Shown here: in pieces, positions 298 through 22,534 of the stretch | Position numbering within the stretch: the first letter of the stretch is position 1 | Layout of the letters: the number at the start of each line of letters is the position of its first letter | DNA from: Thermofilum pendens Hrk 5 | Lineage (GTDB): Archaea > Thermoproteota > Thermoprotei > Thermofilales > Thermofilaceae | Assembly (NCBI RefSeq): GCF_000015225.1 | Contig: NC_008698.1 | Span: 1,470,001 to 1,502,000 of the forward strand | Direction of reading: 5' to 3' | Length of the DNA: 32,000 nt | Position numbers and translations under genes: made by a program | Notes under the pieces: generated by a model | The model's input: only the letters and a program-made list of their open reading frames with translations | Database searches by the model: none | Told to the model about the DNA's origin: nothing

Positions 298-394
298 CGG
301 TATTAATGCAACGCGCACAGATATCAAGCCGCGCATTGAACGATAGGAGTCCAGGGCTCTGAACGCAGACCTTCCGGAAAACCGAACTAAAAAG

Positions 395-402
395 TTTAAA
401 TA
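395..402 (+). promoter_or_regulatory. Archaeal TATA box (TTTAAATA) with an A-rich BRE-like stretch, for the 438-1007 gene
   Basis: AAAAAG-TTTAAATA lies 36 nt upstream of ATG 438. A GGGTGA Shine-Dalgarno-like element sits at 427-432. The element is near-palindromic and could also serve the divergent minus-strand gene. Confidence 0.5.
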
Positions 403-437
403 CCCCCGCTCCCATCGGTGGTTCAAAGGGTGAAAAC

Positions 438-1007
438 ATGCAAGTGAAAAAGACAACCTTGGTAGCACTCCTAATAGCGCTGGCATCCACAGCCTTCGCC
501 GTAGCCGCGGTGACGCTGACAAACATAACCGAGTGGCACATCCAGGCAGCCGGCACGCCCCCAATAGTCAAGGTAGCGGGAGCCGACGCCGGTACCGGGC
601 TCATAAGCGTGTCGACGACCACTGCTAGCGACGGGACGAACAGGACAGTGATAACGATTAAGGGCTACACCGGGGATCCCACCCGCTACAGCGAGGTCAT
701 AAAGATCTGCAACAAGGACACCACGAAGACCTACACCGTCAGCCTAGTATACAAGGGAGTGATAAGTAGCGGTGGCTGGAACAACTACGTCAAGTACCTA
801 ACCCTATGGCTTGGCGGCTACCCCAGCGGGCCCTCGATAACGATAACCTCCACGACCACACCACCCGCTTCCACGGGCACCGTACAGGTCGGGCCCGGTA
901 TTTGCGTCCCCGTATCCGCCGAGGTACTCGTAGACGCATCCACACCGCAGAGCTCCTGGAACACGGACCTCATGAGCATTCAGATCGACGTCGTATCCCA
1001 AGGGTAA
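438..1007 (+). CDS. Small secreted T/S/V/G-rich protein (189 aa) of unknown function; candidate surface or structural subunit
   Basis: ATG start with SD and TATA. Sec-type signal MQVKKTTLVALLIALASTAFAVAA, then VTLTNITEWHIQA, a motif shared with the 2475-4061 protein. N-x-S/T sequons, a TTTPPAST linker and no TM segment beyond the signal. Confidence 0.85.
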   Translation: MQVKKTTLVALLIALASTAFAVAAVTLTNITEWHIQAAGTPPIVKVAGADAGTGLISVSTTTASDGTNRTVITIKGYTGDPTRYSEVIKICNKDTTKTYTVSLVYKGVISSGGWNNYVKYLTLWLGGYPSGPSITITSTTTPPASTGTVQVGPGICVPVSAEVLVDASTPQSSWNTDLMSIQIDVVSQG

Positions 1008-1013
1008 AAGGAA

Positions 1014-1023
1014 TTCTTTTTTT
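1014..1023 (+). terminator. Oligo-T tract (TTCTTTTTTT) just after the 438-1007 gene; possible partial terminator
   Basis: Archaeal termination uses oligo-T. The tract begins 7 nt after the stop at 1005-1007. Confidence 0.4.
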
Positions 1024-1034
1024 GAACTAAACCC

Positions 1035-1042
1035 TTTATATT
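1035..1042 (+). promoter_or_regulatory. TATA box (TTTATATT) for the 1064-4061 gene pair
   Basis: Centred about 26 nt upstream of GTG 1064 (ATG 1073 is an alternative start), consistent with a leaderless or short-leader transcript. Confidence 0.4.
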
Positions 1043-1063
1043 TCTTTACCGCCTTTCTAGTAG

Positions 1064-2482
1064 GTGGGTGGTATGGTCGTGCGGCTCAGGAAGAGGGACG
1101 TCTACCTCTACCTAGCATCGCTGCTCGTCGCCGCGTTCGCAACGCTGGTACTGCTATACCCCCTCGGCGTCCAGGCCGTGGTCGTGGGGGGCGCGCGGGA
1201 CGTCGAGGCAAAGCCCGCCGAGCTCGACGTCTACGCCTCGAATACCACCGTCTACTGCTACGGCGGAGCGCTGGAACTGAAGAACCTCGGCGCCGCGGGG
1301 CAGGCGTACCGCTTGAGGATCAGCGCCTCCCCGCCGAGGGGGCTGAGCCTCCTGGAGCTCAGGCTCAACGGTAGCGCTGTCTTCGCGCTGGGCGCTGTAA
1401 ACGCGTCGAGGGAGGTGGTCCTGCCGGCGGGCTCGTCCGCTAGGCTCGACCTCTGCGTCAAGGCTTCGAGCCCGGGCAGCGTGGAGCTGGTGTTCGTGGA
1501 TCCGGCTTACGCCAGGGCTACGGAGTCGAGGGTCAGGGTTTCCTACAGGCTTACCGACTGGTGGAACAACACGTTCCCGAGGAGGGTGGAGCTCGTGCCA
1601 GTAGTCTCGAAGCCGGGGGTGGCGCTGTTCGAGGTCACGGGGTCCGGGGAGGTCTACGTCAACGGGAGGCTCGTCAGGAGGATCTCCGGGATAGCCGGGC
1701 TCGGTAGCGACGCTTTCGCCGTTGTGTTGCGGAGGAGCGGGGCCGACTACCTGTTGCCCTACCAGGTCGAGGCTTGGACGGTGAGGGGGGACGGCGTCGC
1801 CGAGCCCTCCGGGGTTAGGCGGCCCGGGGAGGCCGTCTGGGGGGACGACAGGCTCGTCTTCGCGGCGTACCTGGAGAACGGCTCCAGGATCTACATCTAC
1901 ATGGGCGGGAGGTACCCCTGGGGTGAGGCGGGCGACGTGCAGGTCCTCGAGGGGGCCGCGCTACTCGGGGGCGAGAGGCTGAACCTGTCGAGGTGGGGCG
2001 TGGAGGCGAGGGGCTTCTCGCTGAACCTGTCTGGCTACGTGGTGTTCCCCTACCAGTCGGTGAAGGAGGAGCTCAGCGACCCCGGCTCCTGGAGAAACGC
2101 GGCTTCGGGCCCCGTGAGGACTGTCCTCTGGTTCTCCACGACAGGCTTCTCGAACTACAGGGTCGAGGCGGCGGTGACACTGTGGGGGCGCGGCGTGAAC
2201 GCAGCGCTCGTATACGTGTGGCCCAGCCTCAGCTACAGGGGGATAGTTCTGGAGTGGGTCTCCCCGAGGATCGCGCTGCGCGGCAACACCTCGCTCGCCT
2301 TCAACCCGGGTACGACCGGCAACTACCTGCCGCTGAGGCTCGAAAAATACGGCGTGGCTCTCTGCAGGGACTTCTTCCTCTCGGGGGGCACTTACGGCTA
2401 CTTCTCCCTAGCCCTCGGCCCAGCCCCCTTCGCCGAGCTGAAGAGGCTGGACGCCGCGTACTCGAGCTTCCCGGGTGGCTAG
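1064..2482 (+). CDS. N-terminally membrane-anchored extracellular protein with a DUF2341-like domain (about aa 160-285)
   Basis: N-terminal TM or signal anchor VYLYLASLLVAAFATLVLLY. Many N-x-S/T sequons. The segment TDWWNNTFPRRVEL...YLLPYQVEAW...RIYIYMGG resembles the DUF2341 pattern (W..yR..i ... lpyeiE.W ... iyvYYGn). The stop TAG 2480-2482 overlaps or abuts the next gene's start. Confidence 0.75.
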   Translation: MGGMVVRLRKRDVYLYLASLLVAAFATLVLLYPLGVQAVVVGGARDVEAKPAELDVYASNTTVYCYGGALELKNLGAAGQAYRLRISASPPRGLSLLELRLNGSAVFALGAVNASREVVLPAGSSARLDLCVKASSPGSVELVFVDPAYARATESRVRVSYRLTDWWNNTFPRRVELVPVVSKPGVALFEVTGSGEVYVNGRLVRRISGIAGLGSDAFAVVLRRSGADYLLPYQVEAWTVRGDGVAEPSGVRRPGEAVWGDDRLVFAAYLENGSRIYIYMGGRYPWGEAGDVQVLEGAALLGGERLNLSRWGVEARGFSLNLSGYVVFPYQSVKEELSDPGSWRNAASGPVRTVLWFSTTGFSNYRVEAAVTLWGRGVNAALVYVWPSLSYRGIVLEWVSPRIALRGNTSLAFNPGTTGNYLPLRLEKYGVALCRDFFLSGGTYGYFSLALGPAPFAELKRLDAAYSSFPGG

Positions 2483-4061
2483 CATGAGGAAAACCGTTCT
2501 AGCCCTCTCGATAGCCATGCTCGCGCTGGCAGGCGCCTACGCCGCCGTCACGATAATCAACCTGACGGAGTGGCACGTCCAGGCGACCCAGCCCCCCGTC
2601 AAGAAGCTAGCCGCTTACGGAGTCAAGAGAACCGCCGCGTACGCGCAAGCGGAGAACGGCTTAAACGTGACGTACGTCGAGGTGACTGCGCCGCTCGGTT
2701 GCAGGGTCATTTTCGACCCAGCACTAGTCCTGTCCGCTTCAACCAATCTACCCGCGAAACTATATGCGGAGTCCGTAACCGGTAACTACGCGTTTCAGCT
2801 ATCGGTAAACGTAAGCCTCGGCGGCACGCAACAAGTACAGGTAGTAAGCGGGTCGATAACGCAGAGTGCCGGCGCGCCTGTAAGCGTGCAGGGAAGCGCG
2901 AACTTCAGGCTAGAAGTCCTCGTGGGCTCTGGAGCACCTCTGGGCTCGGAAGTCGCCAGGCTCTACACGTGGCTTTACTTCAATGCAAGCACGTCCAAGG
3001 CTAGGCAGAAGATAGTCTGGGTATTCAAAACAATGAGCTGGCTCTACTGCGGCTGGCTGTATAGGAAGGGCCACGACATTGTTGGCTCTACTGCGGGGGC
3101 TGTTTCCGGCTACCAGGTGAGGCTCAGGGTGTGTAGTGGTAGCGGGACTGACTCGGGGGATACTGTCTACTTGAACGGGAAGGGGAGGGCGGACTTCGGG
3201 GACCTCAGGTTCTCGTACCTCCAGCCCGACGGGAGAGAGGTAGCTATACCGTACTGGGTGGAGAGCGTTAGCGGCGGCTGCGCCACCGTATGGGTGAAGG
3301 TGCCGAGCATACCTGCCAGCCCCGGGACAGCCAGGATATACGTCTACTACGGAAACCCCTCTGCTACTAGCGAGAGCAACGGAGCGGCGACGTTCATCTA
3401 CTTCAACGACTTCTCGAGCGCCATAGGTTTCACGAGCTTCCCATACGACAAGGGGGCGGACGGCTGGGGCGACGTGGACGGTAGCGACTCTTCTGGCTGG
3501 CAGCTCTTCCAGGGGGCTCTCAAGCACCGCGTGACTGTTGACGCTAGCCACATGTACGCGTTGACGGACGTCCAGAATGGTAACGTGGCTGTATGTGTCC
3601 TCATAAACCTCGGGAAGCTCGAGGAGATAGAGGAGGCGGGAGTAGCGGCTAGGCACAGTGTCGACGCCAACGGCTACATAAGGCAGTACTACGCTAGGCT
3701 CATATACGCGCCGAGCCTGATCGACTCGTTAACGTTTAGGCCAAGAGTTAACGTGGAGCTCGTTAAGAGTACTGGTCTGCCGAGCGAGGTAGAGCCCGTG
3801 CACGTCTATTACAGCTTGCAGGCTAATACTTGGTACAAGCTTGAGATGAGGCTGTACGGTGGGCACATAACAGTGTACGTGGACGACTCTAAGGTTATCG
3901 ACTGGACCGACTCAAGCCCGATAACCTCCGGCTCCAGGCTAGGCCTCTTCAGCGCGTACAACAAGAACGTCGACCACCTATATGACAACTTCTACGTCCG
4001 CAACTACGTAGAGCCAGAGCCAAGCCACGGGCAGTGGCTCCCGGAGGAGACGGATCCTTAA
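2475..4061 (+). CDS. Secreted 528-aa protein: shared N-terminal module, then a DUF2341-like domain (about aa 192-300) and a concanavalin/LamG-like lectin region (about aa 305-520)
   Basis: Signal MASMRKTVLALSIAMLALAGAYAA, then VTIINLTEWHVQA. With GTG 2475 the motif has the same residue numbering as in the 189-aa protein (ATG 2484 is an alternative start). WLYRKGHDIV..GDLRFSY..IPYWVES..ATVWVKVPSIP..ARIYVYYGNPSA is a good DUF2341 pattern. The C-terminal WYKLEMRLYGGHITVYVDDSKV...GLFSA is LamG/DUF1080-like. Confidence 0.85.
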   Translation: MASMRKTVLALSIAMLALAGAYAAVTIINLTEWHVQATQPPVKKLAAYGVKRTAAYAQAENGLNVTYVEVTAPLGCRVIFDPALVLSASTNLPAKLYAESVTGNYAFQLSVNVSLGGTQQVQVVSGSITQSAGAPVSVQGSANFRLEVLVGSGAPLGSEVARLYTWLYFNASTSKARQKIVWVFKTMSWLYCGWLYRKGHDIVGSTAGAVSGYQVRLRVCSGSGTDSGDTVYLNGKGRADFGDLRFSYLQPDGREVAIPYWVESVSGGCATVWVKVPSIPASPGTARIYVYYGNPSATSESNGAATFIYFNDFSSAIGFTSFPYDKGADGWGDVDGSDSSGWQLFQGALKHRVTVDASHMYALTDVQNGNVAVCVLINLGKLEEIEEAGVAARHSVDANGYIRQYYARLIYAPSLIDSLTFRPRVNVELVKSTGLPSEVEPVHVYYSLQANTWYKLEMRLYGGHITVYVDDSKVIDWTDSSPITSGSRLGLFSAYNKNVDHLYDNFYVRNYVEPEPSHGQWLPEETDP

Positions 4062-4331
4062 CGCTAGCATGCGCTGTGACCTTCATGGCCGCTGATGCCC
4101 GGCGCTGTACCCCCGCAATCCCTGGCACGAAAAAGGTTATTTCTGGGTTGTTCTGGGACGACCTCTCGTTGACCTACTACGCCTGCGACCCCTGCCTTCC
4201 GGTCTAGCGGGAACCTCGTCTGCATACCCCTCGTCGCCGGCGGGGCTTCATACGCGGCGAACTTCACGGGGACGGGTTCCTACGGCTTCTACCTCCTCGG
4301 CTCAAACCTGAACAAGCTGTTCGGGGTCTAC

Positions 4332-4559
4332 GTGAGCGGTGGGAGCTACTACGCGGTGTGCGGCGCGGCGACTGCGCCCTTGTACACCGGTAGCGCTTAC
4401 TGGGTTGACCTTAGGCTTTTATCCGGTGTCTACGAAGCCATAGTGAGGGGGTCGGATGGCTCCATACTCTCCAGGTATAGCTGCGCGCCGCCCGGCTCGC
4501 CGAGCTACGTGGGCTTCGAGAACGTCGGCTCGTTCACGTTGAACGTTTGGGGACCGTAG
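4332..4559 (+). CDS. Short lectin/jelly-roll-like ORF, probably the tail of a decayed or mis-started gene (frame open from 4173)
   Basis: Only a GTG at 4332 is available as a start. The same frame is open back to the TGA at 4170 with no ATG/GTG/TTG. YWVDLRLLSGVYEAIVRGSDGS...YVGFENVGSFTLNVWG resembles the C-terminal lectin-like region of the upstream protein. Confidence 0.3.
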   Translation: MSGGSYYAVCGAATAPLYTGSAYWVDLRLLSGVYEAIVRGSDGSILSRYSCAPPGSPSYVGFENVGSFTLNVWGP

Positions 4560-4598: not shown

Positions 4599-5543
4599 CT
4601 ACGGTGCTTCCTCTACCGTTACTTGGAGCCTGCGGAGCGTACCCGCGTAGAAGACTTCTAGGACCGCTTTTTCCCCTACCTCCTTCTGCCTGAGCTTAGA
4701 CACGAGGTCTCCCGTGCCTTTGACCTCCGAGCCGTCCAGCTTCAGTATGACTGCCCCGGGCTTTACGCCAGCCCTGGCGGCGGGGCTCCCGGGGACAACC
4801 CTTAGTACGAGCACTCCGGCCGCTCTCGGCAACCCTAGCTGGTAGGCTATCGCCGGGTTCACGTCTAGCCCGTAGACGCCTATCCACGGTCTGAGAATCC
4901 TGCCGTACTTTTCAAGCTGGGCCAGGGCGTACTTCACCTCGTTTATGGGTATGGCGAACCCTATGCCTTGGGCGAACGGTATCATAGCGGTCGTTATCCC
5001 CACGACCCTCCCTTCGAGGTCGACGAGGGGGCCTCCGCTGTTCCCGGGGTTTACCGGCGCGTCCGTCTGTATGAGGTTCTCGTATATTTTTCCCTCGGCC
5101 CTCAGGCTTCTCCCGAGCCCGCTCACAACGCCGAACGTCAGGCTGGGACCTCCGAGGAGCTGGCCGAAGGGGTTTCCCACAGCTACAACGAACTGCCCGA
5201 CCCTCAAGCTGTCGGAGTCGCCCAGCTCGGCTGGCTTAAGCCTCGCCCTCTCTACTCGAAGAAACGCTATGTCGTAGTGCGGATCCACGTCTACGACCTC
5301 CGCTCTTACGTGGTCCCCACCTGGAGTCGTCACGGAGATCTCCTCGAAGCCCTCGACGACGTGGGCATTCGTAGCCACCAAGCCGTCCTCGCTTACCGCT
5401 ACGCCGGACCCTAGCCCCGAGACTGGTTCGCGTACGAAGAGGAAGTCCAGGACCTTTACCGCCGTTACGCTTACAACGCTGTCCCTAACCTTCTCGTAGG
5501 CTCTGATAACCCTTTCCTGGAGGTCTTCCGCCAAGCCAACCAC
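4599..5543 (-). CDS. htrA: HtrA/DegP-family trypsin-like serine protease with a C-terminal PDZ domain
   Basis: Catalytic triad contexts TNAHVV, YDIAFL and GNSGGPL. The C-terminal PDZ-like region includes GSPAARAGVKPGAVILKLDG. GTG start; no obvious signal peptide. Confidence 0.9.
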   Translation of the reverse strand: MVGLAEDLQERVIRAYEKVRDSVVSVTAVKVLDFLFVREPVSGLGSGVAVSEDGLVATNAHVVEGFEEISVTTPGGDHVRAEVVDVDPHYDIAFLRVERARLKPAELGDSDSLRVGQFVVAVGNPFGQLLGGPSLTFGVVSGLGRSLRAEGKIYENLIQTDAPVNPGNSGGPLVDLEGRVVGITTAMIPFAQGIGFAIPINEVKYALAQLEKYGRILRPWIGVYGLDVNPAIAYQLGLPRAAGVLVLRVVPGSPAARAGVKPGAVILKLDGSEVKGTGDLVSKLRQKEVGEKAVLEVFYAGTLRRLQVTVEEAP

Positions 5544-12336: not shown

Positions 12337-12912
12337 GTGGCTACAGAGCTAAAGCGTTCAAGAAAAGTGCTGTCTACTACAGATATTGTCGCCATGGGTA
12401 TTGGAACGGCGCTCTACGCTGCCTTCAACGTTTTCTTCAACATTCTCCAGATACCTGGATCACAACTCGTCTCCGTGCGTCCCAGCGTAAGTATACCCAT
12501 GTTCTTCGGCCACGTATTCGGCCCAGTTGTAGGCTTTGTAGTGGGGTTTCTCGGAAACACGATAAGTGACGCTGTGAGCTGGGGAGGTTTCTGGTGGAAC
12601 TGGGACGTGGGCAACGGGCTCCTCGGACTGATATCCGGGCTGGCATCGTACATTATTAAGCGCGAAGAGCTACTAGAGAAGAAGGGGTTAATGGTAGCGT
12701 CGGTACTCGCAGTCGTAGGATCTATAGTCGGCATGGGCTTCGCGTCCTTTACTGACTACATTTTCGGGTATGGGATATCTACGATCGAAGAGGCAATATA
12801 CGCGTTGTTCCTACCAGCCGCTGTGACCGACGCCGTTAACGGCGCCATACTCACCCCTGTCTTGATCAAAGCTTATAGTGCGGCGGTAAAAGGCAGGTCT
12901 AGGAGAACCTAG
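12337..12912 (+). CDS. ECF transporter substrate-capture (S) component, module 1; specificity unknown
   Basis: 191 aa, about 6 TM segments, GTG start 30 nt downstream of AAGTTTAT (12303-12310). It sits immediately upstream of ecfT (1-nt gap). A small Gly/aromatic-rich integral membrane protein, typical of S components. Confidence 0.65.
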   Translation: MATELKRSRKVLSTTDIVAMGIGTALYAAFNVFFNILQIPGSQLVSVRPSVSIPMFFGHVFGPVVGFVVGFLGNTISDAVSWGGFWWNWDVGNGLLGLISGLASYIIKREELLEKKGLMVASVLAVVGSIVGMGFASFTDYIFGYGISTIEEAIYALFLPAAVTDAVNGAILTPVLIKAYSAAVKGRSRRT

Positions 12913-12913
12913 A

Positions 12914-13705
12914 ATGTCGAGCAGAATAGTTAGGTACATTGAAGGGAGTAGCATCGTACACAGACTGGATCCCAGGGTTAAACTATTTTTTGTTGGAAGC
13001 GTGGTTTTAGCGGCTTCGCTTTCCTACAACCTCCTTCTAGCGGTACTAACACTAGCATTAGGCCTATCGTTCTATCTTCTCGCAAGGCTTCCCTTCTCGA
13101 AAACGAAGAACACTTGGAAGTTCATACTGATCGTAGCCCTGGTTCTGTCTTTCCTGAACTATCTGTTCGTAGCTGTGCTCTACCATAGGCCGCGCGGAGA
13201 GCTATTAGAGGCATTTATGAGCGCGGAGCTCCTCTCCAGGTCTATCACTCCTGTACTCAAGCTTCTAGCGGTAGCAACAGTTACGGTCGCGTTCGTTTAC
13301 ACAACTCCTCCTCACCTTTACGCTCCTGCGCTAGGACAACTCGGGCTGAGCTACAGGGCCGCGTATGCCGTACATCTAGGTTTTAGGTACTTCCCTCAGT
13401 TCGTGGACGAGTTAAGGCGCACATTAGAAGCGCAGATGGCTAGGGGGTATAGGCCGCGGGGTGGGAAGAATCCTCTCGGCAGGATCTTAGCGGTAATCCC
13501 GTTGATAGTGCCCGTAACCGTGTCTGCAACGCTCTCCATCTACGATGTCTCCGATGCGATGGAGCTGAGGGGGTTCGGAGGGACAAAGTGCCATACGTGG
13601 TATAGAAAACTGTCCATGAAAACTCTGGACAAGGCTTTCGCTATACTTTCGGCTGTAATCTCGCTGGTATTCCTCGCTTTATACGTTCTTCGCCCCTTAC
13701 CATAG
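12914..13705 (+). CDS. ecfT: ECF transporter transmembrane (T) component EcfT/CbiQ family, module 1
   Basis: N-terminal VHRLDPRVKL motif and the coupling-helix motif AQMARGYRP (x-R-G). 263 aa with about 5-6 TM segments. Confidence 0.85.
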   Translation: MSSRIVRYIEGSSIVHRLDPRVKLFFVGSVVLAASLSYNLLLAVLTLALGLSFYLLARLPFSKTKNTWKFILIVALVLSFLNYLFVAVLYHRPRGELLEAFMSAELLSRSITPVLKLLAVATVTVAFVYTTPPHLYAPALGQLGLSYRAAYAVHLGFRYFPQFVDELRRTLEAQMARGYRPRGGKNPLGRILAVIPLIVPVTVSATLSIYDVSDAMELRGFGGTKCHTWYRKLSMKTLDKAFAILSAVISLVFLALYVLRPLP

Positions 13706-16920: not shown

Positions 16921-18375
16921 GTGGACCTGAAGTGCTTTGACAAGATAACTGTCGGGCCAGTGAAGGTCAAGGGTAGGCGTACGAGCGTTAGGTACGTCTT
17001 GGAGTTCGACGGGTTGAGGAAGGAGTACGAGCTCGTGAACGTTTACCCAGAGGACCTCGACCCTAGGGTGCTCGAGGAGGCTTCCAGCATGGCCGGCATA
17101 GTGCCGGCGGTTAACTACGCACTGTTCGCAGACGAGATAAGGCTCGACGTGAAGCTTCACAGCCTGGACTTGAGGTTCTTCGAGGACATGGCGCGGGTAA
17201 CGGCAGGGGACATCTTCGTGAACAGAATCGTCGCGCGCACAGGGCTCATAAAGGAGGAGTACCTCCCCGACCCGGAGAGCGTGACGCCGGAGGACGCCGA
17301 GCCTCGGGCGACCGTTGTCGCCGAGAACGTGGACGACTCGACGTACCTGGAGGCCGAGCCGGACTACTCGAAGTGCGGCGTCATGTCGTCGGGGGGCAAG
17401 GAGAGCCTGTTCGCGTACGGACTCCTCAGGGAGGCCGGGTGCGAGGTCTACCCGTTCTTCCTCAACGAGGCCGGGAGGCACTGGTGGACGGCGCTCACGG
17501 CCTACAGGGAGCTGTCGAGGAGGGACCCCAACACCAGGAGGGTTTGGAGCAACGTGGACAGGCTGTTCGCGTTCATAGAGAAGAACATGAAGATAGTCGT
17601 CCCGAACTACTGGAGGAAGAACAGGGAGATATATCCCGTCAGGCTCTTCTGGTACGCTCACTACATACTCTCGTTCCTCCCCTTGGCGCTCAAGTACGGC
17701 GTGGGCAACATAGTCATGGGAAACGAGTTCGACGACCCCTCGGGGCTGACGTTCGAGTACAAGGGTATAAGGCACTACTACGCGACTTACGACCAGTCCC
17801 TAGACTTCGACGTCTACATGACGCGGTACTTCGAGGAGAGGGGGCTGGGCATCAAGCAGTGGTCGCCTCTAAGGCCGGTAACACCCATAACGATACTCAG
17901 GATACTCTTCGACAGGTACCCGGACCTCGCGCCGCTCGTAACGAGCTGCCACTCGACGCACGTAGAGAACGGGGTTGTGAAGCCCTGCGGTACCTGCTAC
18001 AAGTGCAACGGCGTCCTGCTCATGCTTCTCGCGGTCGGCGCGGACCCGAGGCTCCTGAGGTACGATGAGAGGCACGTCGAGACTCTCCCGGAGAGGCTGT
18101 CAAAGGGGCTTGTAAGGCTCGAGCCATCCCTGGTCAAGCACTCCCTCTACCTCGTCGCGAGCAGGGGGCTCTGGAGGCTTCCGGGCGCGGAGCCCGTCTG
18201 GCACGTCGAGATGATACACTTCGACGGCATAAACAGCACCCCGGACTTCATCCCGCACAGGGACCTGAGGCTGAGGGTGCTGAGTATCTACGAGAAGTAT
18301 ACGAGGGGGTACGCGAAGCTCGAGAACGGGCAGTGGGTCCAAGTAGACCCGGAGTCGATCCCCGGCCTCAGGTAG
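16921..18375 (+). CDS. PP-loop ATP-pyrophosphatase-like protein with a QueC-like C-x12-C-x2-C-x2-C cluster and an uncharacterised N-domain of about 150 aa
   Basis: PP-loop variant GVMSSGGKESL (SGGxDS with D replaced by E). Later motifs are GNEFDD and SCHSTHVENGVVKPCGTCYKCNG. GTG start 2 nt after the upstream stop. 484 aa. Confidence 0.75.
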   Translation: MDLKCFDKITVGPVKVKGRRTSVRYVLEFDGLRKEYELVNVYPEDLDPRVLEEASSMAGIVPAVNYALFADEIRLDVKLHSLDLRFFEDMARVTAGDIFVNRIVARTGLIKEEYLPDPESVTPEDAEPRATVVAENVDDSTYLEAEPDYSKCGVMSSGGKESLFAYGLLREAGCEVYPFFLNEAGRHWWTALTAYRELSRRDPNTRRVWSNVDRLFAFIEKNMKIVVPNYWRKNREIYPVRLFWYAHYILSFLPLALKYGVGNIVMGNEFDDPSGLTFEYKGIRHYYATYDQSLDFDVYMTRYFEERGLGIKQWSPLRPVTPITILRILFDRYPDLAPLVTSCHSTHVENGVVKPCGTCYKCNGVLLMLLAVGADPRLLRYDERHVETLPERLSKGLVRLEPSLVKHSLYLVASRGLWRLPGAEPVWHVEMIHFDGINSTPDFIPHRDLRLRVLSIYEKYTRGYAKLENGQWVQVDPESIPGLR

Positions 18376-18387
18376 CGGTGCACGGGC

Positions 18388-18900
18388 ATGCCGTTCACGC
18401 CGTTTCACCTGGGGCCTGCTCTCGCCGTGGGGCTTCCGCTCAGGGAGAGGATCCACGCCCCCACGTTCATACTGGCCAGCATCGCGGTGGACGTCGAGCC
18501 GCTAGTAGTGCTCGTGCTGGGGCTCGACTACCCCCTCCACGGCTACCTCCACACGTTCGCCGGCGCCGCGTTGCTGGGGCTGTGCCTAGGGCTCCTGATG
18601 CACGCGACGGAGAAGGTACTCGGGAACGCCTGGAAGAGAGCCCTGCTGGAAGGGTCGCGGAGCGTTGGCTTCGAGGGCTTCGCGGTGGCCGGGATCCTAG
18701 GGTGCACGGTTCACGTTCTGCTCGACTCGCCGCTGTACCCCGACATCAGGCCGCTCTACCCCTACGCCGCGAACCCTCTCTACGACCCCAGTTTAACCCC
18801 GGCCGTCTACCTGCTCTGCTCCGTGCTCCTCCTGGGAGGGCTGGCGTACTACCTATACCTCGCCCTGCAGCATCAGGCGAAGCAAGGGTTAGCCCGCTAG
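18388..18900 (+). CDS. Small polytopic membrane protein, membrane-bound metal-dependent hydrolase-like (DUF457/DUF4184-like)
   Basis: MPFTPFHLGPALAVG N-terminus, with conserved His/Asp in hydrophobic contexts (PLHGYLHTF, VHVLLDSP). ATG lies 12 nt after the upstream stop, with GGTG upstream. Confidence 0.5.
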   Translation: MPFTPFHLGPALAVGLPLRERIHAPTFILASIAVDVEPLVVLVLGLDYPLHGYLHTFAGAALLGLCLGLLMHATEKVLGNAWKRALLEGSRSVGFEGFAVAGILGCTVHVLLDSPLYPDIRPLYPYAANPLYDPSLTPAVYLLCSVLLLGGLAYYLYLALQHQAKQGLAR

Positions 18901-18978
18901 GTCTCTCGGCGGGTTTCTCCGAGCATCTGTGTTGGTTTAGTAGGTGGATCCCACGGGAAAGTAGGGCGCAAGGTATTT

Positions 18979-20625
18979 TTGCGTTCAGCCGTGGAGTTCC
19001 CGGTGGTCTTACGGGTGCCTGAAATAGAGGTCGAGGAGCTTTCGTTTACTTACGCCGGTAAAGGGGAGCCAGCGTTAAGGAACGTTAGCTTGGAAGTAGA
19101 CAAGGGCGAAGTGGTGCTTCTTGCCGGTAGGAGCGGGAGCGGGAAATCTACGCTTTTAAAGGCCATCAATGGGCTGATACCCCATAGGTACTCGGGAACT
19201 TATAAGGGAGCCGTCAGGGTAAGGGGGCTTACCGTAGCAGAAACTCCCGTCTACGAATTGTCGAGAATTGTAGGCACAGTTATGCAGGAGGTCTCGAAGC
19301 AACTATTTCTGCCAACAGTAGCGGATGACGTAGCGTTTGGCCCCTCCAACCTATGCATCGAGAGAGAGGAAATTGAGAGGAGGGTTGAAGAGGCGCTGAG
19401 TAGACTCGGCATACTGCACCTGAAGGATCGCGACGTGAACGAGCTGAGTGGCGGCGAGAAACAGAGAGTAGCCATAGCCGGCGTCTTAGCCATGAAGCCC
19501 GAAATAATACTCATGGATGAGCCTCTAGCCAATCTCGATAGCGAAGGTGTAGCCACGGTTCAAGAGGTGATAAAGAGTTTCCGCGAAGAGGGAAAAACAG
19601 TCGTAATAGCGGAACACAGAGTTGAGGAAGTTCTGGAGGTAGGGGTGGACCGGGTCTTCGTGATGAGAGAGGGAACCATAGTTAGGGAGGTGGAGAGAGT
19701 AGAGGAGCTCGCCAACTTTGCGGATGAACTGAAGGTTCCAGCAGAGGCTTACTTGCCCCCGGGCATCGTGGAGGCTCCACGCATCTCTCTGCCGCATCAC
19801 TCTCCGGGGGTAGTCGCCGTAGAGTTTAGGAATGTGAGCTTTAGCTACGAGGACAAGCCCGTACTCAAAGGGATAAACCTTGAGATACGCGAGGGGGAGA
19901 GAGTCGCGCTTCTCGGAAACAATGGCGCCGGTAAAAGCACAATGGCGAAGCTCATGCTCGGCTTGCTTAAACCTACGGAGGGTAGCGTCCTGGTCTACGG
20001 ACGGGATACCCACACGATGGAAGTCTATGAAGTCGCGCCGATGGTCGGGCTAGTGTTTCAGGATCCTTTCAGCATGCTATTCGCGGAGACCGTGCGAGAA
20101 GAAATAGCATTTGGGCCTAGAAATCTGGGAGTTCCGCCCTCCGAGATACCTGGGAGAGTGGAGGAGGCGGCGGAGAGGTGCTTTGTGAAGCACTTGCTCG
20201 ACTTCTCCCCCTTTGCGTCTAGCCATGGGGAGAAGAAGAGAATATGCGTTGCCTCAATACTATCTATGAAGCCAAGGATTCTGGTGCTGGACGAGCCTAC
20301 AGCGGGGCAGGACTACGCTACATATACTGCTTTCATGGAGTTCGTAGACTCCCTGGTAAACGCCGGCGTCATTAAAACACTTGTACTAATAACGCATGAC
20401 ACCGATCTCGCAGTGGAATACACAGACAGAACAATAGTGCTTGCTAACGGAGAGATAGTGGCAGACGGACCAACTAGGAAAGTGCTTTCAGACTCCTCTG
20501 TGCTTGCAAAGGGGAAGATTCGTGAGACAAGCCTTATTAGGCTAGGCAAAAGGCTCACCGGTGGAAACTACATCTTGTCGAGAAAAGAACTAGCTATGCT
20601 AGCACGTAGCAGGACGCATTCGTAG
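18979..20625 (+). CDS. Fused tandem ECF/CbiO-type ABC ATPase (A-A'), module 1
   Basis: Two NBDs. NBD1: GRSGSGKST / LSGGEKQR / IILMDEP. NBD2: GNNGAGKST / degenerate SSHGEKKR / ILVLDEP. The track start is TTG 18979; GTG 19015 (MPEIEVEELSFTY) aligns better with the paralog's N-terminus. Confidence 0.92.
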   Translation: MRSAVEFPVVLRVPEIEVEELSFTYAGKGEPALRNVSLEVDKGEVVLLAGRSGSGKSTLLKAINGLIPHRYSGTYKGAVRVRGLTVAETPVYELSRIVGTVMQEVSKQLFLPTVADDVAFGPSNLCIEREEIERRVEEALSRLGILHLKDRDVNELSGGEKQRVAIAGVLAMKPEIILMDEPLANLDSEGVATVQEVIKSFREEGKTVVIAEHRVEEVLEVGVDRVFVMREGTIVREVERVEELANFADELKVPAEAYLPPGIVEAPRISLPHHSPGVVAVEFRNVSFSYEDKPVLKGINLEIREGERVALLGNNGAGKSTMAKLMLGLLKPTEGSVLVYGRDTHTMEVYEVAPMVGLVFQDPFSMLFAETVREEIAFGPRNLGVPPSEIPGRVEEAAERCFVKHLLDFSPFASSHGEKKRICVASILSMKPRILVLDEPTAGQDYATYTAFMEFVDSLVNAGVIKTLVLITHDTDLAVEYTDRTIVLANGEIVADGPTRKVLSDSSVLAKGKIRETSLIRLGKRLTGGNYILSRKELAMLARSRTHS

Positions 20626-20665
20626 CACTTAAACGCTAGACCGCGAACCTCCTTCCAGAAAACCA

Positions 20666-20674
20666 TTTTAAATA
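20666..20674 (+). promoter_or_regulatory. TATA box (TTTTAAATA) for the coiled-coil gene
   Basis: Lies 31-39 nt upstream of GTG 20705. Confidence 0.45.
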
Positions 20675-20704
20675 CTTCCGGTTAGTTTTTCTCGGGTTTG
20701 GCTG

Positions 20705-21658
20705 GTGGCGGCGCTGGGTAGGAGGGAGTGGGAGAGGCTTATCAAGGCTTTGGAGGAGGATAGGGAGCTTAGGTACGCGTTAGCCGGTTTGCTGGGCTTC
20801 AGGGATTTGCTCGAGAAGATGGACGCGACGCTGAGCGAGATAAAGGCTTTGAGGGAGGGACAGGAGCAACTGTGGAGAAAACAGGAGAAGCTGTGGGGAG
20901 AGGTGAGAAAGCTCTGGGAGGAAGTCAGAGCGCTGAGAGAGGATCAAAGAAAGCTGTGGGAAGAGGTAAAAGCTCTGAGGGAAAACCAGGAAAAGCTATG
21001 GGAGGAAGTGAAGTCCCTCAGAGAGGGGCAGGGAAAGCTATGGGAAGAAGTTAAGGCGCTGAGAGAGGATCAGAGGAGGCTGTGGGAGGAGGTGAAGGCT
21101 CTCAGGGAAAACCAGGAAAAATTATGGGAGGAAGTTAGAGCTTTAAGAGAGGACCAGGGGAAGCTGTGGGAAGGCCAGCAGAGGCTCTGGGAGGAGGTCA
21201 GGGCGCTGAGAGAAGGGCAGGAGAGGTTGCGTGGAGATGTGGATGGGCTACGCGCCAGTTTTAGGCAACTAGGCGAAGCTGTTGGCATGACACTCGAGTT
21301 CTACGCCGCCGCTTTCCTGGAGAGACTCCTGGCGGAGAAGGGGTACCCGGAGGCTAGGGTCAGGGTTGGCGTCAACCTAGCGTACAAAGGCGTACTAGTA
21401 GAGCTCGACCTCTTCTGCGAGGAGCCGTTGCTAGTGGGGGAAGTGACTACCTACCTGCGCTCCGCCGAGGATGCCGAGAGGGAGGCGGCTAAGCTTATGG
21501 AGAGAGTTAAGGTAGTCGAGGAGATCAGCGGGAGAAAAGTGGAGCTAGCAGTGCTGGCTGTAGCGAACCTCGGCAGAGAAGCCCTAGAGGTCCTGGAGAA
21601 GCTACATAGAGAGAAAGGAGTACTGGTCGTAACCGGTAGAGAACTAGAGTACCCCTAA
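20705..21658 (+). CDS. Coiled-coil repeat protein with a C-terminal alpha/beta domain resembling a PD-(D/E)xK-type nuclease fold
   Basis: aa 43-190 are about 10 units of LWEEV(K/R)ALRE(D/N/G)Q(R/E/G)K. The C-terminal part, LEFYAAAFLERLL...VLVELDLF..LLVGEVTTYL...VELAVLAV, has an E...D...E-x-(K replaced by T) layout. Confidence 0.8.
   Translation: MAALGRREWERLIKALEEDRELRYALAGLLGFRDLLEKMDATLSEIKALREGQEQLWRKQEKLWGEVRKLWEEVRALREDQRKLWEEVKALRENQEKLWEEVKSLREGQGKLWEEVKALREDQRRLWEEVKALRENQEKLWEEVRALREDQGKLWEGQQRLWEEVRALREGQERLRGDVDGLRASFRQLGEAVGMTLEFYAAAFLERLLAEKGYPEARVRVGVNLAYKGVLVELDLFCEEPLLVGEVTTYLRSAEDAEREAAKLMERVKVVEEISGRKVELAVLAVANLGREALEVLEKLHREKGVLVVTGRELEYP
20831..21268 (+). repeat. In-frame tandem repeat, 42-nt (14-aa) period with three 21-nt half units
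   Basis: Unit starts are at 20831, 20870, 20891, 20912, 20954, 20996, 21038, 21080, 21122, 21164, 21185 and 21227. The units differ mostly at synonymous or conservative positions. Confidence 0.9.
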
Positions 21659-21743
21659 ACCACTCAAAACCCAGCCGCCGGTGCATGCTCCGCGCGCCCA
21701 GGAGAAGCCTTTAAGCATTCTTCCCGTATTTCTGAGCGTTAGG

Positions 21744-21751
21744 TATTTATA
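21744..21751 (+). promoter_or_regulatory. TATA box (TATTTATA) for ECF module 2
   Basis: Lies 29-36 nt upstream of TTG 21780. Confidence 0.45.
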
Positions 21752-21779
21752 GGACCTGGAAACAGGGCTTGAAGGGCAC

Positions 21780-22532
21780 TTGGGTACCACCCTTAAGGAA
21801 AGCTCGGGTGTAAAGAGAAGGATAAGCACGCAGGACGTTGCCCTCGTCGCCGTTATGGCTGCTCTCGCCAACGTCCTGGGCTTCTTCGCTATACCTGGCC
21901 CCTGGAACATACAGTTCAGCATGACCGGGATCCCGATACTTCTAGTAGCCTTCACGAGAGGCCCTCTGCTAGGAGCCCTTACAGGCCTCCTCGGCGGCTA
22001 CGTCCAGGCGGTGAAGTACGGGTGGGAGGGCTACGTTGTCTACACAGCCATACAGGGCGGCGTGGCAGGCTTCTTCGCGAAGAAGGTGAGACTGCTCAGG
22101 GTACTAGCGCCTCCATTCTTCTTCTTCGGCGGCTTCTTCTTAACGTGGTGGGTCGACCAGATGAGGTACGGCAAGGTGACCTTCGAGGACCTAGTATCAA
22201 TGACCCAGCGAGCCGTGGCGGCAGGTCCGGAGACCGGGCTGGCCGTGCCCTACGTCTCCATAGTCAGCGGCGTTGTGGCAGCGGCGGTAGCCGCCCTGCT
22301 GGTCCTAAGGTTCCCCGAGAATAGAAGGTTGTTGCTCACGCTGGCTGGCTGCATGGGGGCCATAGCCTACGTGCCCTACGATGCCTTCGCCCTCTACGTT
22401 GTGCAACAGTACCCGTGGATCCCCACGTGGTTCGTGCTGGCAAAGGACCTAGTCCAGGACTTCGTAGCGGCAGGCATCACGGCCAGCATACTCGAGAACA
22501 AGAGGGTTAGGAGGCTACTGGGGGGTGCGTAG
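21780..22532 (+). CDS. ECF transporter S component-like membrane protein, module 2; specificity unknown
   Basis: 250 aa, polytopic. The N-terminal ISTQDVALVAVMAALANVLGFFAIPGP..FSMTGIPILLVAF is typical of S components. TTG start. Its stop lies 2 nt before the ATPase start. Confidence 0.6.
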   Translation: MGTTLKESSGVKRRISTQDVALVAVMAALANVLGFFAIPGPWNIQFSMTGIPILLVAFTRGPLLGALTGLLGGYVQAVKYGWEGYVVYTAIQGGVAGFFAKKVRLLRVLAPPFFFFGGFFLTWWVDQMRYGKVTFEDLVSMTQRAVAAGPETGLAVPYVSIVSGVVAAAVAALLVLRFPENRRLLLTLAGCMGAIAYVPYDAFALYVVQQYPWIPTWFVLAKDLVQDFVAAGITASILENKRVRRLLGGA

Positions 22533-22534
22533 GA

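What the first reader, a model, noticed from the sequence alone, without database searches (positions are those of the whole stretch)
395..4061. Exported-protein cluster organised like a major-subunit plus accessory/adhesin locus: candidate novel surface filament or adhesion system
Gene 1 encodes a small (189 aa) Thr/Ser/Val/Gly-rich secreted protein. It has its own strong TATA plus SD and an oligo-T tract right after the stop, the expression architecture typical of an abundant structural subunit with read-through into accessory genes. Gene 2 is a membrane-anchored DUF2341-like protein. Gene 3 carries the same signal peptide and mature N-terminus as gene 1, followed by DUF2341-like and LamG/ConA-like (carbohydrate-binding type) regions, which is what a tip or minor adhesin subunit would look like. 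In Sec-exported donor-strand filaments (bacterial chaperone-usher pili, Sulfolobus threads, Pyrobaculum bundling pili), the conserved N-terminal strand of the mature subunit mediates polymerisation; this is an analogy only. I saw no class III (type IV pilin) cleavage motif and no TasA/SipW-type motif. If this is a filament, it is not obviously one of the described classes.
Basis: partly seen in the sequence, partly recalled or inferred. Interest (0 to 1): 0.7.

Follow-up and report, generated by a model that had tools for sequence, protein, structure and literature searches.

The report
Thermofilum bundling-pilus locus with swapped adhesin
This is the Thermofilum pendens copy of the known archaeal bundling pilus (ABP, AbpA/TasA-type) locus; its third gene is a pilin-like minor subunit that recently picked up a sugar-binding-type head from another gene in the same genome.

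Summary
There are three co-oriented genes with a TATA box, SD motifs and a T7 tract after gene 1. Genes 1 and 3 share a signal peptide and mature N-terminus. Gene 3 has DUF2341 plus a ConA-like lectin fold. Gene 2 is not DUF2341-like.

The claim that this is not a described filament class is wrong. Gene 1 (Tpen_1524) matches the cryo-EM-solved Pyrobaculum bundling pilin AbpA (PDB 7UEG) at E=1.5e-21, with the donor strand conserved. Wang et al. 2022 already reported abpA/abpB in Thermofilales. Gene 2 sits where AbpB sits and shows weak colinear profile similarity to it.

What is new concerns gene 3.
- Its N-terminal about 187 aa is a divergent AbpA-like pilin module. Profile similarity survives removal of the signal peptide and donor strand (93.5%, E=2e-7).
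- Its relatives in other Thermofilaceae are orthologues of the uncharacterised Pyrobaculum Pcal_0904-type gene (E=1e-118).
- In T. pendens the body was replaced by a DUF2341+lectin cassette that is 337/339 identical to one in another T. pendens protein.
- A frameshifted 3' remnant of the old gene remains at 4140-4559.

Most likely this is a donor-strand pilus with a modular minor pilin-adhesin: a new member of a known kind, of moderate interest.

The parts
390..402 (+). BRE/TATA-like promoter element (aaaagTTTAAATA) about 36 nt upstream of the gene 1 ATG. GGTG/GGGTGA SD-like motifs lie at 418-433.
   Evidence: Read directly from the sequence. The bacterial sigma-70 scan finds nothing, as expected for an archaeon. 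Function is inferred, not shown.
438..1007 (+). abpA homologue (Tpen_1524, WP_011753185.1, 189 aa), the major bundling pilin. The signal peptide is about aa 1-24 (438-509). The donor strand VTLTNITEWHIQA... starts at aa 25 (510 onward).
   Evidence: phmmer against PDB 7UEG 'Pilin' gives E=1.5e-21 over residues 8-186. It is 100% identical to a T. pendens protein. The alignment places A24|V25 at the experimentally determined AbpA processing site A24|T25. T26, N29, T31, W33 and the sequon N68-x-T70 are invariant.
1017..1023 (+). T7 tract 10 nt after the abpA stop, a candidate archaeal oligo-T terminator or attenuator. It is followed by the TATA-like TTTATATTT (1035-1043) and GGTGGGTGG directly before the gene 2 ATG at 1073.
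   Evidence: Sequence. Equivalent T6-T7 tracts occur in the abpA-to-gene 2 spacers of L002, L003, L005, L007 and L008. Termination itself was not tested.
1073..2482 (+). Gene 2 (Tpen_1525, 469 aa from ATG 1073, or 472 aa from GTG 1064). It has an N-terminal hydrophobic helix followed by an all-beta three-domain ectodomain. It is the probable AbpB (TapA-like) counterpart.
   Evidence: It always lies directly downstream of abpA in the Thermofilaceae loci, at 39-48% identity. The family has only 13 representatives among 1.84 billion proteins. The AF2 model has pLDDT 84.7. hhalign against Pyrobaculum AbpB scores 36.6, E=7e-4, over 208 colinear columns, compared with at most 24.8 in 22 controls. 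There is no DUF2341 signal.
2475..3035 (+). Gene 3 (Tpen_1526) N-terminal module, aa 1-187. It comprises a signal peptide, an AbpA-type donor strand (VTIINLTEWHVQA) and a divergent AbpA-like pilin domain. The likely start is ATG 2484, preceded by a GGTGG SD. It overlaps or abuts the gene 2 stop at 2480-2482.
   Evidence: BLASTP against gene 1 gives E=2e-10 for the first 47 aa. hhalign against the AbpA family gives 99.5%, E=2e-22. With signal peptide and strand removed it still gives 93.5%, E=2e-7 over 100 columns. BLASTP to the second pilin of P. neutrophilum gives 35% identity over 85 aa, E=2e-6. AF2 confidence in this module is below 50, so the fold is not shown.
3036..4061 (+). Gene 3 C-terminal cassette, aa 188-528: DUF2341 plus a ConA-like lectin/glucanase-fold domain. 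It was recently acquired by intragenomic recombination.
   Evidence: Pfam DUF2341 E=3.9e-22, plus a weak 3keto-disac_hyd hit. AF2 pLDDT is mostly 75-97. Foldseek finds CBM66, galectins and LamG-type folds. The cassette is 337/339 identical to the C-terminal module of T. pendens WP_011752612.1. Other Thermofilaceae homologues carry different C-terminal bodies.
4140..4559 (+). Remnant of the 3' end of the ancestral gene 3 (Pcal_0904-type) gene. It consists of a frameshifted stretch (FWDDLSLTYYACDPCLPV*, 4151-4207) and a 75-aa ORF (4332-4559).
   Evidence: tblastn with the 708-aa L002 homologue gives 51% identity over 127 aa, E=6e-31, plus a second-frame piece. Against the C-terminus of the P. 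neutrophilum 773-aa protein it gives E=3e-18. The same segment is a separate 111-aa gene in L005/L006 and is fused to the big protein in L002/L003.

Best explanation
The region is the archaeal bundling pilus (ABP) locus of Thermofilum pendens Hrk 5 (Tpen_1524-1526).

Shown:
- Gene 1 is a homologue of AbpA. The cryo-EM structure of AbpA (7UEG) shows a jelly-roll subunit whose N-terminal strand inserts into the groove of the neighbouring subunit.
- Gene 3 carries the same N-terminal strand, followed by a divergent AbpA-like module and a DUF2341 plus ConA-like-lectin cassette.
- The order abpA, gene 2, gene 3 is conserved across Thermofilaceae.
- The gene 3 family is orthologous to the Pyrobaculum Pcal_0904-type gene.

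Inferred:
- After Sec export and signal peptidase I cleavage near A24|V25, AbpA polymerises without a chaperone by donor-strand complementation. The resulting stable filaments bundle and link cells in biofilms.
- AbpA is made in excess because transcription from its strong promoter partly stops at the T7 tract. Genes 2 and 3 are expressed at lower levels, by read-through and/or from a second TATA, and are translationally coupled.
- Gene 3 joins the filament through its AbpA-type strand, and possibly through its own groove. It acts as a minor pilin that nucleates or caps the fibre and displays an exchangeable binding head, here a lectin-type module. This parallels TapA donating its N-terminus to TasA.
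- Gene 2 (AbpB-like) acts at the membrane as an assembly or anchoring factor.
For: - Gene 1 against 7UEG gives E=1.5e-21 and 37% identity, with donor-strand residues invariant. The AbpA structure and processing site come from PMC9245690.
- The organism is T. pendens. ABP is reported in Thermofilales.
- Synteny holds in the Thermofilaceae loci, with gene 2 at 39-48% identity.
- The gene 3 N-module against the AbpA profile gives 99.5%, or 93.5% without signal peptide and strand.
- The strand motif is shared by AbpA and the gene 3-like protein in every locus, including Pyrobaculum (7-13 of 24 identical).
- The L002 gene 3 homologue against the P. neutrophilum 773-aa protein gives E=1e-118.
- The lectin-type fold of the cassette is supported, and the cassette swap.
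- T tracts after abpA are conserved.
- The TapA strand-donation precedent is PMC10151520.
- Gene 2 against AbpB scores above all 22 controls.
Against: - No filament has been observed for T. pendens. Everything downstream of homology is inference.
- The gene 3 pilin-like module could not be modelled (pLDDT<50), so whether it has an open acceptor groove is unknown. Its position in the fibre (tip, base or interspersed) is therefore undetermined.
- The link between gene 2 and AbpB is weak (hhalign probability 26%, E=7e-4). TapA itself was not among the top Foldseek hits for gene 2, which were generic Ig, PapD-like or macroglobulin domains with low TM scores.
- T. pendens lacks the membrane-bound wHTH regulator found beside the locus in relatives. 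Its gene 3 is a recent chimera with a decayed 3' remnant, so the accessory part may be in flux.
- Oligo-T attenuation was not tested.
Confidence: 0.8

Rival explanations
1. Gene 3 is an independent secreted lectin or glycan-processing protein that is not part of the filament. Its resemblance to gene 1 would reflect only a duplicated export signal.
For: The C-terminal module resembles carbohydrate-binding modules and 3-keto-glycoside hydratases. The same cassette occurs on an unrelated T. pendens protein. DUF2341 proteins are widespread in many architectures.
Against: The similarity runs more than 20 residues past the cleavage site and covers the experimentally defined donor strand. Profile homology to the pilin domain persists after the first about 48 aa are removed. 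The strand plus N-module is conserved next to abpA in two archaeal orders, while the C-terminal bodies vary.
Confidence: 0.08
2. The accessory part of the T. pendens locus is decaying. Gene 3 would be a recent non-functional recombination chimera, and only AbpA (with or without gene 2) would still work.
For: A frameshifted remnant of the ancestral 3' end lies downstream. The cassette is 99.4% identical to its paralogue, so the event is too recent for selection to be visible. The wHTH regulator is missing from the window. abpB is frameshifted in P. oguniense, which shows that accessory genes can be lost.
Against: Gene 3 is an intact 525/528-aa ORF. It has its own SD and is tightly coupled to gene 2. 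The junction falls cleanly between domains (..KIVWVFKT|MSWLY..). The cassette models confidently as folded domains.
Confidence: 0.1
3. AbpB/gene 2, not gene 3, supplies the initiating strand and anchors the fibre, as Wang et al. proposed for AbpB. Gene 3 would be only an occasional lateral decoration.
For: Wang et al. suggest that AbpB initiates assembly. Gene 2 has an N-terminal membrane helix and PapD-like or Ig-like domains, and it always directly follows abpA.
Against: The N-terminus of gene 2 after the hydrophobic segment (VVVGGARDVEAKP..) does not resemble the AbpA strand. Only genes 1 and 3 carry the motif in the window.
Confidence: 0.2
4. The proteins are S-layer or other non-filamentous envelope components.
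For: Gene 3 has a very weak NCBIfam hit to S_layer_VapA (E=0.053, N-terminal 60 aa only).
Against: That hit lies far below the cut-off (12 bits against 200) and covers only the signal region. The T. pendens S-layer protein candidate reported in the literature is a different gene, A1RY64. Gene 1 matches a solved pilus subunit.
Confidence: 0.02

Closest known systems
Archaeal bundling pili (ABP) of Pyrobaculum calidifontis: AbpA (Pcal_0910, PDB 7UEG), AbpB (Pcal_0909), Pcal_0904 (Wang et al. 2022, PNAS, PMC9245690)
   Same: Gene 1 is a sequence homologue of AbpA with the same length, signal-peptidase site and donor strand. A roughly 410-470-aa beta-rich protein with an N-terminal hydrophobic segment follows abpA. 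A large secreted protein with an AbpA-like N-terminus (Pcal_0904 type) and, in relatives, a membrane-bound wHTH regulator belong to the locus.
   Different: The Thermofilaceae locus is compact (3-4 genes) and lacks the 4-TM proteins and the GTPase. T. pendens also lacks the regulator. Its Pcal_0904-type gene has lost its body to a DUF2341+lectin cassette. Only one of the three AbpA glycosylation sequons (N78, equivalent to N68 here) is conserved. No filament has been observed in T. pendens.
Bacillus subtilis TasA/TapA/SipW biofilm fibres
   Same: Same superfamily by published profile and structure comparisons, and the same donor-strand assembly. In TasA/TapA a minor protein (TapA) donates an N-terminal strand resembling that of the major subunit (PMC10151520). 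Gene 3 would play the analogous role.
   Different: Gene 1 shows no direct sequence hit to TasA in the PDB search at E<=10. No dedicated SipW-type signal peptidase is present in the 32 kb window. Gene 3 carries a pilin-like module plus adhesin domains, rather than a complete V-set Ig fold.
Haloarchaeal Tafi pili and AbpX-type loci, which have proposed tip, minor-pilin and membrane-anchor genes (PMC12337348; bioRxiv 10.64898/2026.01.04.697558)
   Same: The locus logic is the same: major donor-strand pilin, minor pilin or tip protein, a membrane-anchored accessory protein and a regulator.
   Different: These are different pilin subfamilies. They use Tat or dedicated SPase I with a DUF5305 partner, and AbpX uses Ca2+-dependent assembly. 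None of these features is seen here.
Chaperone-usher pili, with two-domain tip adhesins such as FimH
   Same: Assembly by donor-strand complementation. The adhesin is a pilin module fused to a lectin-type head.
   Different: There is no usher and no periplasmic chaperone gene. The domain order is reversed: here the pilin module is N-terminal and retains a donor strand, whereas FimH has an N-terminal lectin and no donor strand. The two are not homologous.

Membership tests
AbpA family (archaeal bundling pilin, TasA superfamily) | Significant full-length sequence similarity to P. calidifontis AbpA (7UEG) | tested here: met
   phmmer gives E=1.5e-21 over residues 8-186 of 189, with 37% identity in the MAFFT alignment. 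BLASTP to P. neutrophilum AbpA gives E=1.6e-23.
AbpA family (archaeal bundling pilin, TasA superfamily) | Sec signal peptide cleaved by SPase I directly before the donor strand (AbpA: AMA|T25) | tested here: inconclusive
   The alignment puts ..AVAA|V25 at the AbpA site, and the n- and h-regions are present. No signal-peptide predictor or N-terminal sequencing was available.
AbpA family (archaeal bundling pilin, TasA superfamily) | Conserved N-terminal donor strand | tested here: met
   T26, N29, T31, W33, P42 and K45 are invariant across Thermofilaceae homologues and 7UEG.
AbpA family (archaeal bundling pilin, TasA superfamily) | Jelly-roll fold lacking strand B, completed in trans; polymerisation into bundling filaments | not tested
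This feature is inferred from homology only.
AbpB (TapA-like accessory protein of ABP loci) | Gene directly downstream of abpA encoding a roughly 410-aa secreted protein with three beta-rich domains | tested here: met
   Gene 2 has 469 aa, an N-terminal hydrophobic helix and beta domains at about 44-160, 170-280 and 290-465. Its position is conserved.
AbpB (TapA-like accessory protein of ABP loci) | Homology to Pyrobaculum AbpB, or a TapA-like first beta-sandwich | tested here: inconclusive
   BLASTP finds nothing. hhalign gives E=7e-4, probability 26%, over 208 colinear columns, above all 22 controls. The top Foldseek hits are generic Ig, PapD-like and macroglobulin domains, and TapA 6HQC is not in the top 50.
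Pcal_0904-type large secreted protein of ABP loci | Full-length homology to the roughly 710-770-aa Pyrobaculum protein | tested here: not met
   T. pendens gene 3 retains only the N-module, and the C-terminal end survives as a downstream remnant. Thermofilaceae relatives in L002/L003 do meet the criterion (36% identity, E=1e-118). Gene 3 is therefore a rearranged derivative.
DUF2341 (PF10102) | Pfam model above the gathering score | tested here: met
   Gene 3 scores 78.9 bits against a cut-off of 23.4. Gene 2 and 7 relatives have no hit at E<=1, and hhalign gives probability 0.25%.
ConA-like lectin/glucanase (LamG, CBM66, 3keto-disac_hyd) fold | Structural match of a confident model; demonstrated carbohydrate binding | tested here: inconclusive
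   The fold match is met (4b1m TM 0.73, E=1e-6; galectins). The Pfam hits PF06439 and PF19763 fall below their cut-offs. Ligand binding cannot be tested here.
Type IV pili (class III signal peptide) | Short positively charged leader, then a G/A cleavage motif, then a hydrophobic helix retained in the mature pilin | tested here: not met
   Genes 1 and 3 have Sec-type signal peptides aligned to the experimentally processed AbpA. There are no pilin or flagellin family hits.
Chaperone-usher pili | Usher and PapD-type chaperone genes in the locus | tested here: not met
   There is no usher or chaperone family hit in the locus or the window. The PapD-like Foldseek hits of gene 2 have TM<=0.35 and are generic Ig-fold matches.

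The most novel reading that the evidence does not exclude
The Pcal_0904/Tpen_1526 family, not AbpB, may be the true minor pilin of bundling pili. It would be an AbpA-like pilin module with its own donor strand that plugs into the fibre and carries an interchangeable adhesin body.

T. pendens would show this modularity directly. It swapped in a DUF2341+lectin head that the same genome also displays on a protein with a type-IV-pilin-like N-terminus, so one binding specificity would sit on two unrelated filament systems.

This reading would also mean that ABP loci of Thermoproteales and Thermofilales share at least four core genes (abpA, abpB, the wHTH regulator and the minor pilin-adhesin). The published comparison reported two.
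Probability: 0.45. Interest if true: 0.5.

Novelty: new member of a known kind. Interest (0 to 1): 0.35.

Why it matters
The filament class is already known, so the locus as a whole is not a discovery. Three points are nevertheless useful.

- **Incorporation partner.** ABP fibres still have no identified tip, anchor or nucleator. The strand-bearing, pilin-like N-module of gene 3 and the Pcal_0904 family is a concrete, testable candidate.
- **Recent cassette swap.** The swap is 99.4% identical to its source and leaves a decayed 3' remnant. It is a clean natural example of adhesin-head exchange on a donor-strand pilus. It also suggests that T. pendens, an obligately dependent, biofilm- and mat-associated hyperthermophile, tunes what its fibres stick to.
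- **Annotation.** The analysis provides names for three 'hypothetical' or 'DUF2341' genes and their relatives.

Tried and rejected
- **Pfam/NCBIfam on genes 1 and 2:** no hits.
- **Gene 2 as DUF2341-like:** rejected.
- **Genome-contig scan with the AbpA alignment:** it returned only 3 Thermofilaceae loci and no Pyrobaculum locus. Pyrobaculum loci were reached instead through a protein search with the 7UEG sequence and exact-protein look-ups.
- **Look-ups not on record:** the P0093 paralogue and T. tenax AbpA. The DNA-level boundary of the cassette swap therefore could not be mapped.
- **AF2 on gene 3:** it gave no usable model of the N-terminal module (pLDDT<50). The presence of an acceptor groove remains open.
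- **Class III signal peptide in the paralogue P0093:** this was judged by eye only. NCBIfam and Pfam give no pilin-N hit.
- **Supplementary Fig. S3 of Wang et al.:** it is not held. I could not confirm which Thermofilum gene they call abpB.
- **Dedicated signal peptidase:** none was found in the window.
- **Locus tags:** Tpen_1524-1526 appear in no searchable paper.

Full report
**1. What is in the sequence**

The window carries three co-oriented ORFs on the + strand:
- Gene 1, 438-1007, 189 aa.
- Gene 2, 1064/1073-2482, 472/469 aa.
- Gene 3, 2475/2484-4061, 528/525 aa.

A BRE/TATA-like aaaagTTTAAATA lies at 390-402. GGTG-type SD motifs precede each start. A T7 run (1017-1023) follows the gene 1 stop, and a second TATA-like TTTATATTT (1035-1043) follows that. 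The gene 2 stop (TAG 2480-2482) overlaps or abuts the gene 3 start, so the two are translationally coupled.

Mature gene 1 is 47.9% T+S+V+G. Genes 1 and 3 share 23 of their first 47 residues (BLASTP E=2e-10). A pattern for the shared motif hits only these two places in the six-frame translation of all 32 kb.

Gene 3 has DUF2341 (E=3.9e-22) and sub-threshold hits to ConA-like families. Gene 2 has no Pfam or NCBIfam hit. None of 8 family members hits that model, and a profile-profile test gives 0.25% probability.

**2. Identity of gene 1**

Against all PDB chain sequences, gene 1 matches 7UEG 'Pilin' at E=1.5e-21 over residues 8-186. [quoted passage not shown] It is a jelly-roll protein whose N-terminal strand, beginning at T25 after the AMA|T cleavage, inserts into the next subunit (PMC9245690).

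The alignment places A24|V25 of gene 1 at that processing site. The strand residues T26, N29, T31 and W33 and the glycosylation sequon N68-x-T70 (N78 in AbpA) are invariant. No thread subunit, TasA or cannula chain appears at E<=10 in that search, so AbpA is clearly the nearest solved structure.

Gene 1 is 100% identical to Thermofilum pendens Hrk 5 Tpen_1524 (WP_011753185.1). Genes 2 and 3 are Tpen_1525 and Tpen_1526. Its 91 homologue clusters are, where named, almost all Thermofilum, Infirmifilum or Thermofilaceae (one is labelled Ignisphaera sp.).

Wang et al. state that AbpA is conserved in Thermoproteales and Thermofilales, and that abpA and abpB are the genes shared by the two kinds of loci. 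Later papers repeat this distribution. The filament class is therefore a described one.

**3. Synteny**

In the six other Thermofilaceae loci retrieved (L005 and L006 carry the same genes), the order abpA, gene 2-like, gene 3-like is conserved:
- abpA, 178-196 aa.
- Gene 2-like, 458-481 aa, 39-48% identity.
- Gene 3-like, 440-708 aa.

The locus is usually preceded by a membrane-anchored winged-helix regulator (HTH_24/HTH_HVO_0163_N). A T6-T7 tract follows abpA in all of them.

The regulator is homologous to the one in Pyrobaculum ABP loci (E=7e-13). It is absent from the T. pendens window, where a divergent Heavy_Cys_CGP gene lies upstream instead.

**4. Gene 2**

The family is tiny, with 13 representatives among 1.84 billion proteins. 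AF2 gives a confident model (pLDDT 84.7) with an N-terminal helix (7-38) and three beta domains. Foldseek against the PDB returns only generic Ig-like, PapD-like/ASH, macroglobulin and RbmA domains at low TM scores.

BLASTP to Pyrobaculum AbpB finds nothing. Profile-profile alignment, however, is colinear over 208 columns. It includes DWW..F.RR against DWYP..ER and GSGEVYVNGR against DG.LYVWERP. The score is 36.6 and E=7e-4, compared with at most 24.8 in 20 column-shuffled, one reversed and one unrelated control. The 440-aa gene 3-like family does not match AbpB (21.1).

**5. Gene 3**

Its first 187 aa are shared (46-59% identity) with 430-440-aa proteins of other Thermofilum and Infirmifilum species, which carry a different C-terminal domain.

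With deep profiles, this N-module aligns to the AbpA family at 99.5% probability (E=2e-22, 151 columns). After removal of the signal peptide and donor strand it still aligns at 93.5% (E=2e-7, 100 columns), in the same register. A shallower profile gave only E=1e-3. It also hits a second pilin paralogue of P. neutrophilum (35% identity over 85 aa, E=2e-6). The N-module is therefore a divergent pilin domain, not just a borrowed strand. AF2 could not model it (pLDDT<50), so whether it has a groove is unknown.

The 705-708-aa gene 3-like proteins of two Thermofilaceae MAGs are clear orthologues of the 773-aa P. neutrophilum protein that corresponds by position and size to Pcal_0904 (36% identity over 754 columns, E=1e-118). 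Wang et al. describe Pcal_0904 only as having an N-terminal TM segment and a large beta ectodomain, and no other searchable paper mentions it. These Pyrobaculum proteins also begin with an AbpA-like strand (LSFLNVVQTAVNASLAPVAKG against VTFTNVTYWLINATKPPAMKY).

**6. The cassette swap**

Residues 188-526 of gene 3 (DUF2341 plus a ConA-like domain) are 337/339 identical to the C-terminal module of another T. pendens protein, WP_011752612.1. That protein is 730 aa and has a CARDB domain. Its N-terminus looks by eye like a class III (type IV pilin-type) signal, but no family model confirms this.

The module models confidently. It matches CBM66 (TM 0.73), galectins, LamG-type domains and 3-keto-glycoside hydratases.

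Downstream of the gene 3 stop, 4140-4559 still encodes the last roughly 140 aa of the ancestral Pcal_0904-type protein. It is split by a frameshift and a stop, and ends in a 75-aa ORF. In L005/L006 this segment is a separate 111-aa gene, and in L002/L003 it is the C-terminus of the large protein. A recent intragenomic recombination therefore replaced the body of the minor subunit with a lectin-type head that brought its own stop codon.

**7. Mechanism**

Shown:
- Homology of gene 1 to a donor-strand pilin.
- Conservation of the strand in genes 1 and 3.
- Pilin-like nature of the gene 3 N-module.
- Lectin-type fold of its head.
- Synteny and the conserved T tract.

Inferred:
- Sec export and SPase I cleavage, presumably by the housekeeping enzyme, since no dedicated peptidase lies in the window.
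- Chaperone-free donor-strand polymerisation of AbpA.
- Stoichiometry set by partial termination at the T tract and/or a second promoter.
- Incorporation of gene 3 through its strand, as nucleator, cap or minor subunit displaying a binding head. This parallels TapA donating its N-terminus to TasA (PMC10151520) and the tip and minor subunits proposed for Tafi and AbpX loci.
- Gene 2 acting at the membrane in assembly or anchoring.

The position of gene 3 in the fibre cannot be decided without a model of its groove.

**8. Rivals**

- A stand-alone lectin or enzyme role for gene 3 is unlikely, because homology extends beyond the signal peptide and the N-module is conserved next to abpA in two orders.
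- A decaying chimera cannot be excluded, because the swap is very recent and the regulator is missing. Against this, the ORF, SD, coupling and domain junction are all intact.
- An S-layer role is rejected. The VapA hit is noise, and the T. pendens S-layer candidate is another gene.

**9. Verdict**

The modest new content has three parts:
- Recognition of the Pcal_0904/Tpen_1526 family as a strand-bearing, pilin-like minor subunit with exchangeable bodies.
- The very recent head swap in T. pendens.
- Evidence that ABP loci of the two orders share more than two genes.

Classification: new member of a known kind. Interest about 0.35.

Noticed in passing
window 4140-4559: A frameshifted remnant (FWDDLSLTYYACDPCLPV*, then a 75-aa ORF at 4332-4559) of the C-terminal roughly 140 aa of the ancestral Pcal_0904-type gene lies downstream of gene 3. 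The same segment is an independent 111-aa gene in L005/L006 and is fused to the large protein in L002/L003.
   Followed up: yes
T. pendens protein WP_011752612.1 (P0093), outside the window: This 730-aa paralogue has a DUF2341+ConA-like module 99.4% identical to that of gene 3. It also has a CARDB domain and an N-terminus (MSRDGCARGQASAVGAVFITMVFILLAV) that looks by eye like a class III, type-IV-pilin-type signal. The same binding head may therefore sit on two different surface structures. The locus DNA could not be retrieved.
   Followed up: partly
L009 9624-10862 (Pyrobaculum oguniense TE7): The abpB gene directly downstream of abpA is split by a frameshift and has no called gene. It is either a pseudogene or a sequencing error.
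   Followed up: partly
L010 9759-10331 (Pyrobaculum neutrophilum): A second 190-aa AbpA paralogue with its own donor strand (TVSILNVTYWYVNTTAPPVIKY) lies between abpA and abpB. It is a candidate minor pilin, and the gene 3 N-module matches it better than it matches AbpA.
   Followed up: partly
L005 4987-5844; L007 7043-7915; L008 7000-7887; L002 9080-9799; L010 12396-13067: A regulator with a signal or TM segment, an extracellular beta domain, a second TM segment and a winged-helix domain is conserved beside ABP loci in both Thermofilaceae and Pyrobaculum (E=7e-13). It is missing from the T. pendens window, where a divergent 453-aa Heavy_Cys_CGP gene lies upstream (L001 5506-6867).
   Followed up: partly
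L011 12731-13566 and L012 2232-3052: A nucleotidyltransferase/HepT-like toxin-antitoxin pair is inserted inside the Pyrobaculum and Thermoproteaceae ABP loci. P. aerophilum also has a family-2 glycosyltransferase there (L011 10531-11772).
   Followed up: no
window 4599-5543 (- strand): An HtrA-like protease (Trypsin_2 + PDZ) lies convergent to the locus, immediately after the remnant. It is not conserved next to the locus in relatives.
   Followed up: partly
window 12337-13705 and 18979-24857: There are two ECF-type transporter gene sets (S component, CbiQ-like T component, duplicated ABC ATPases). Two ORFs of about 480 and 230 aa at 16921-19022 have no family assignment.
   Followed up: no
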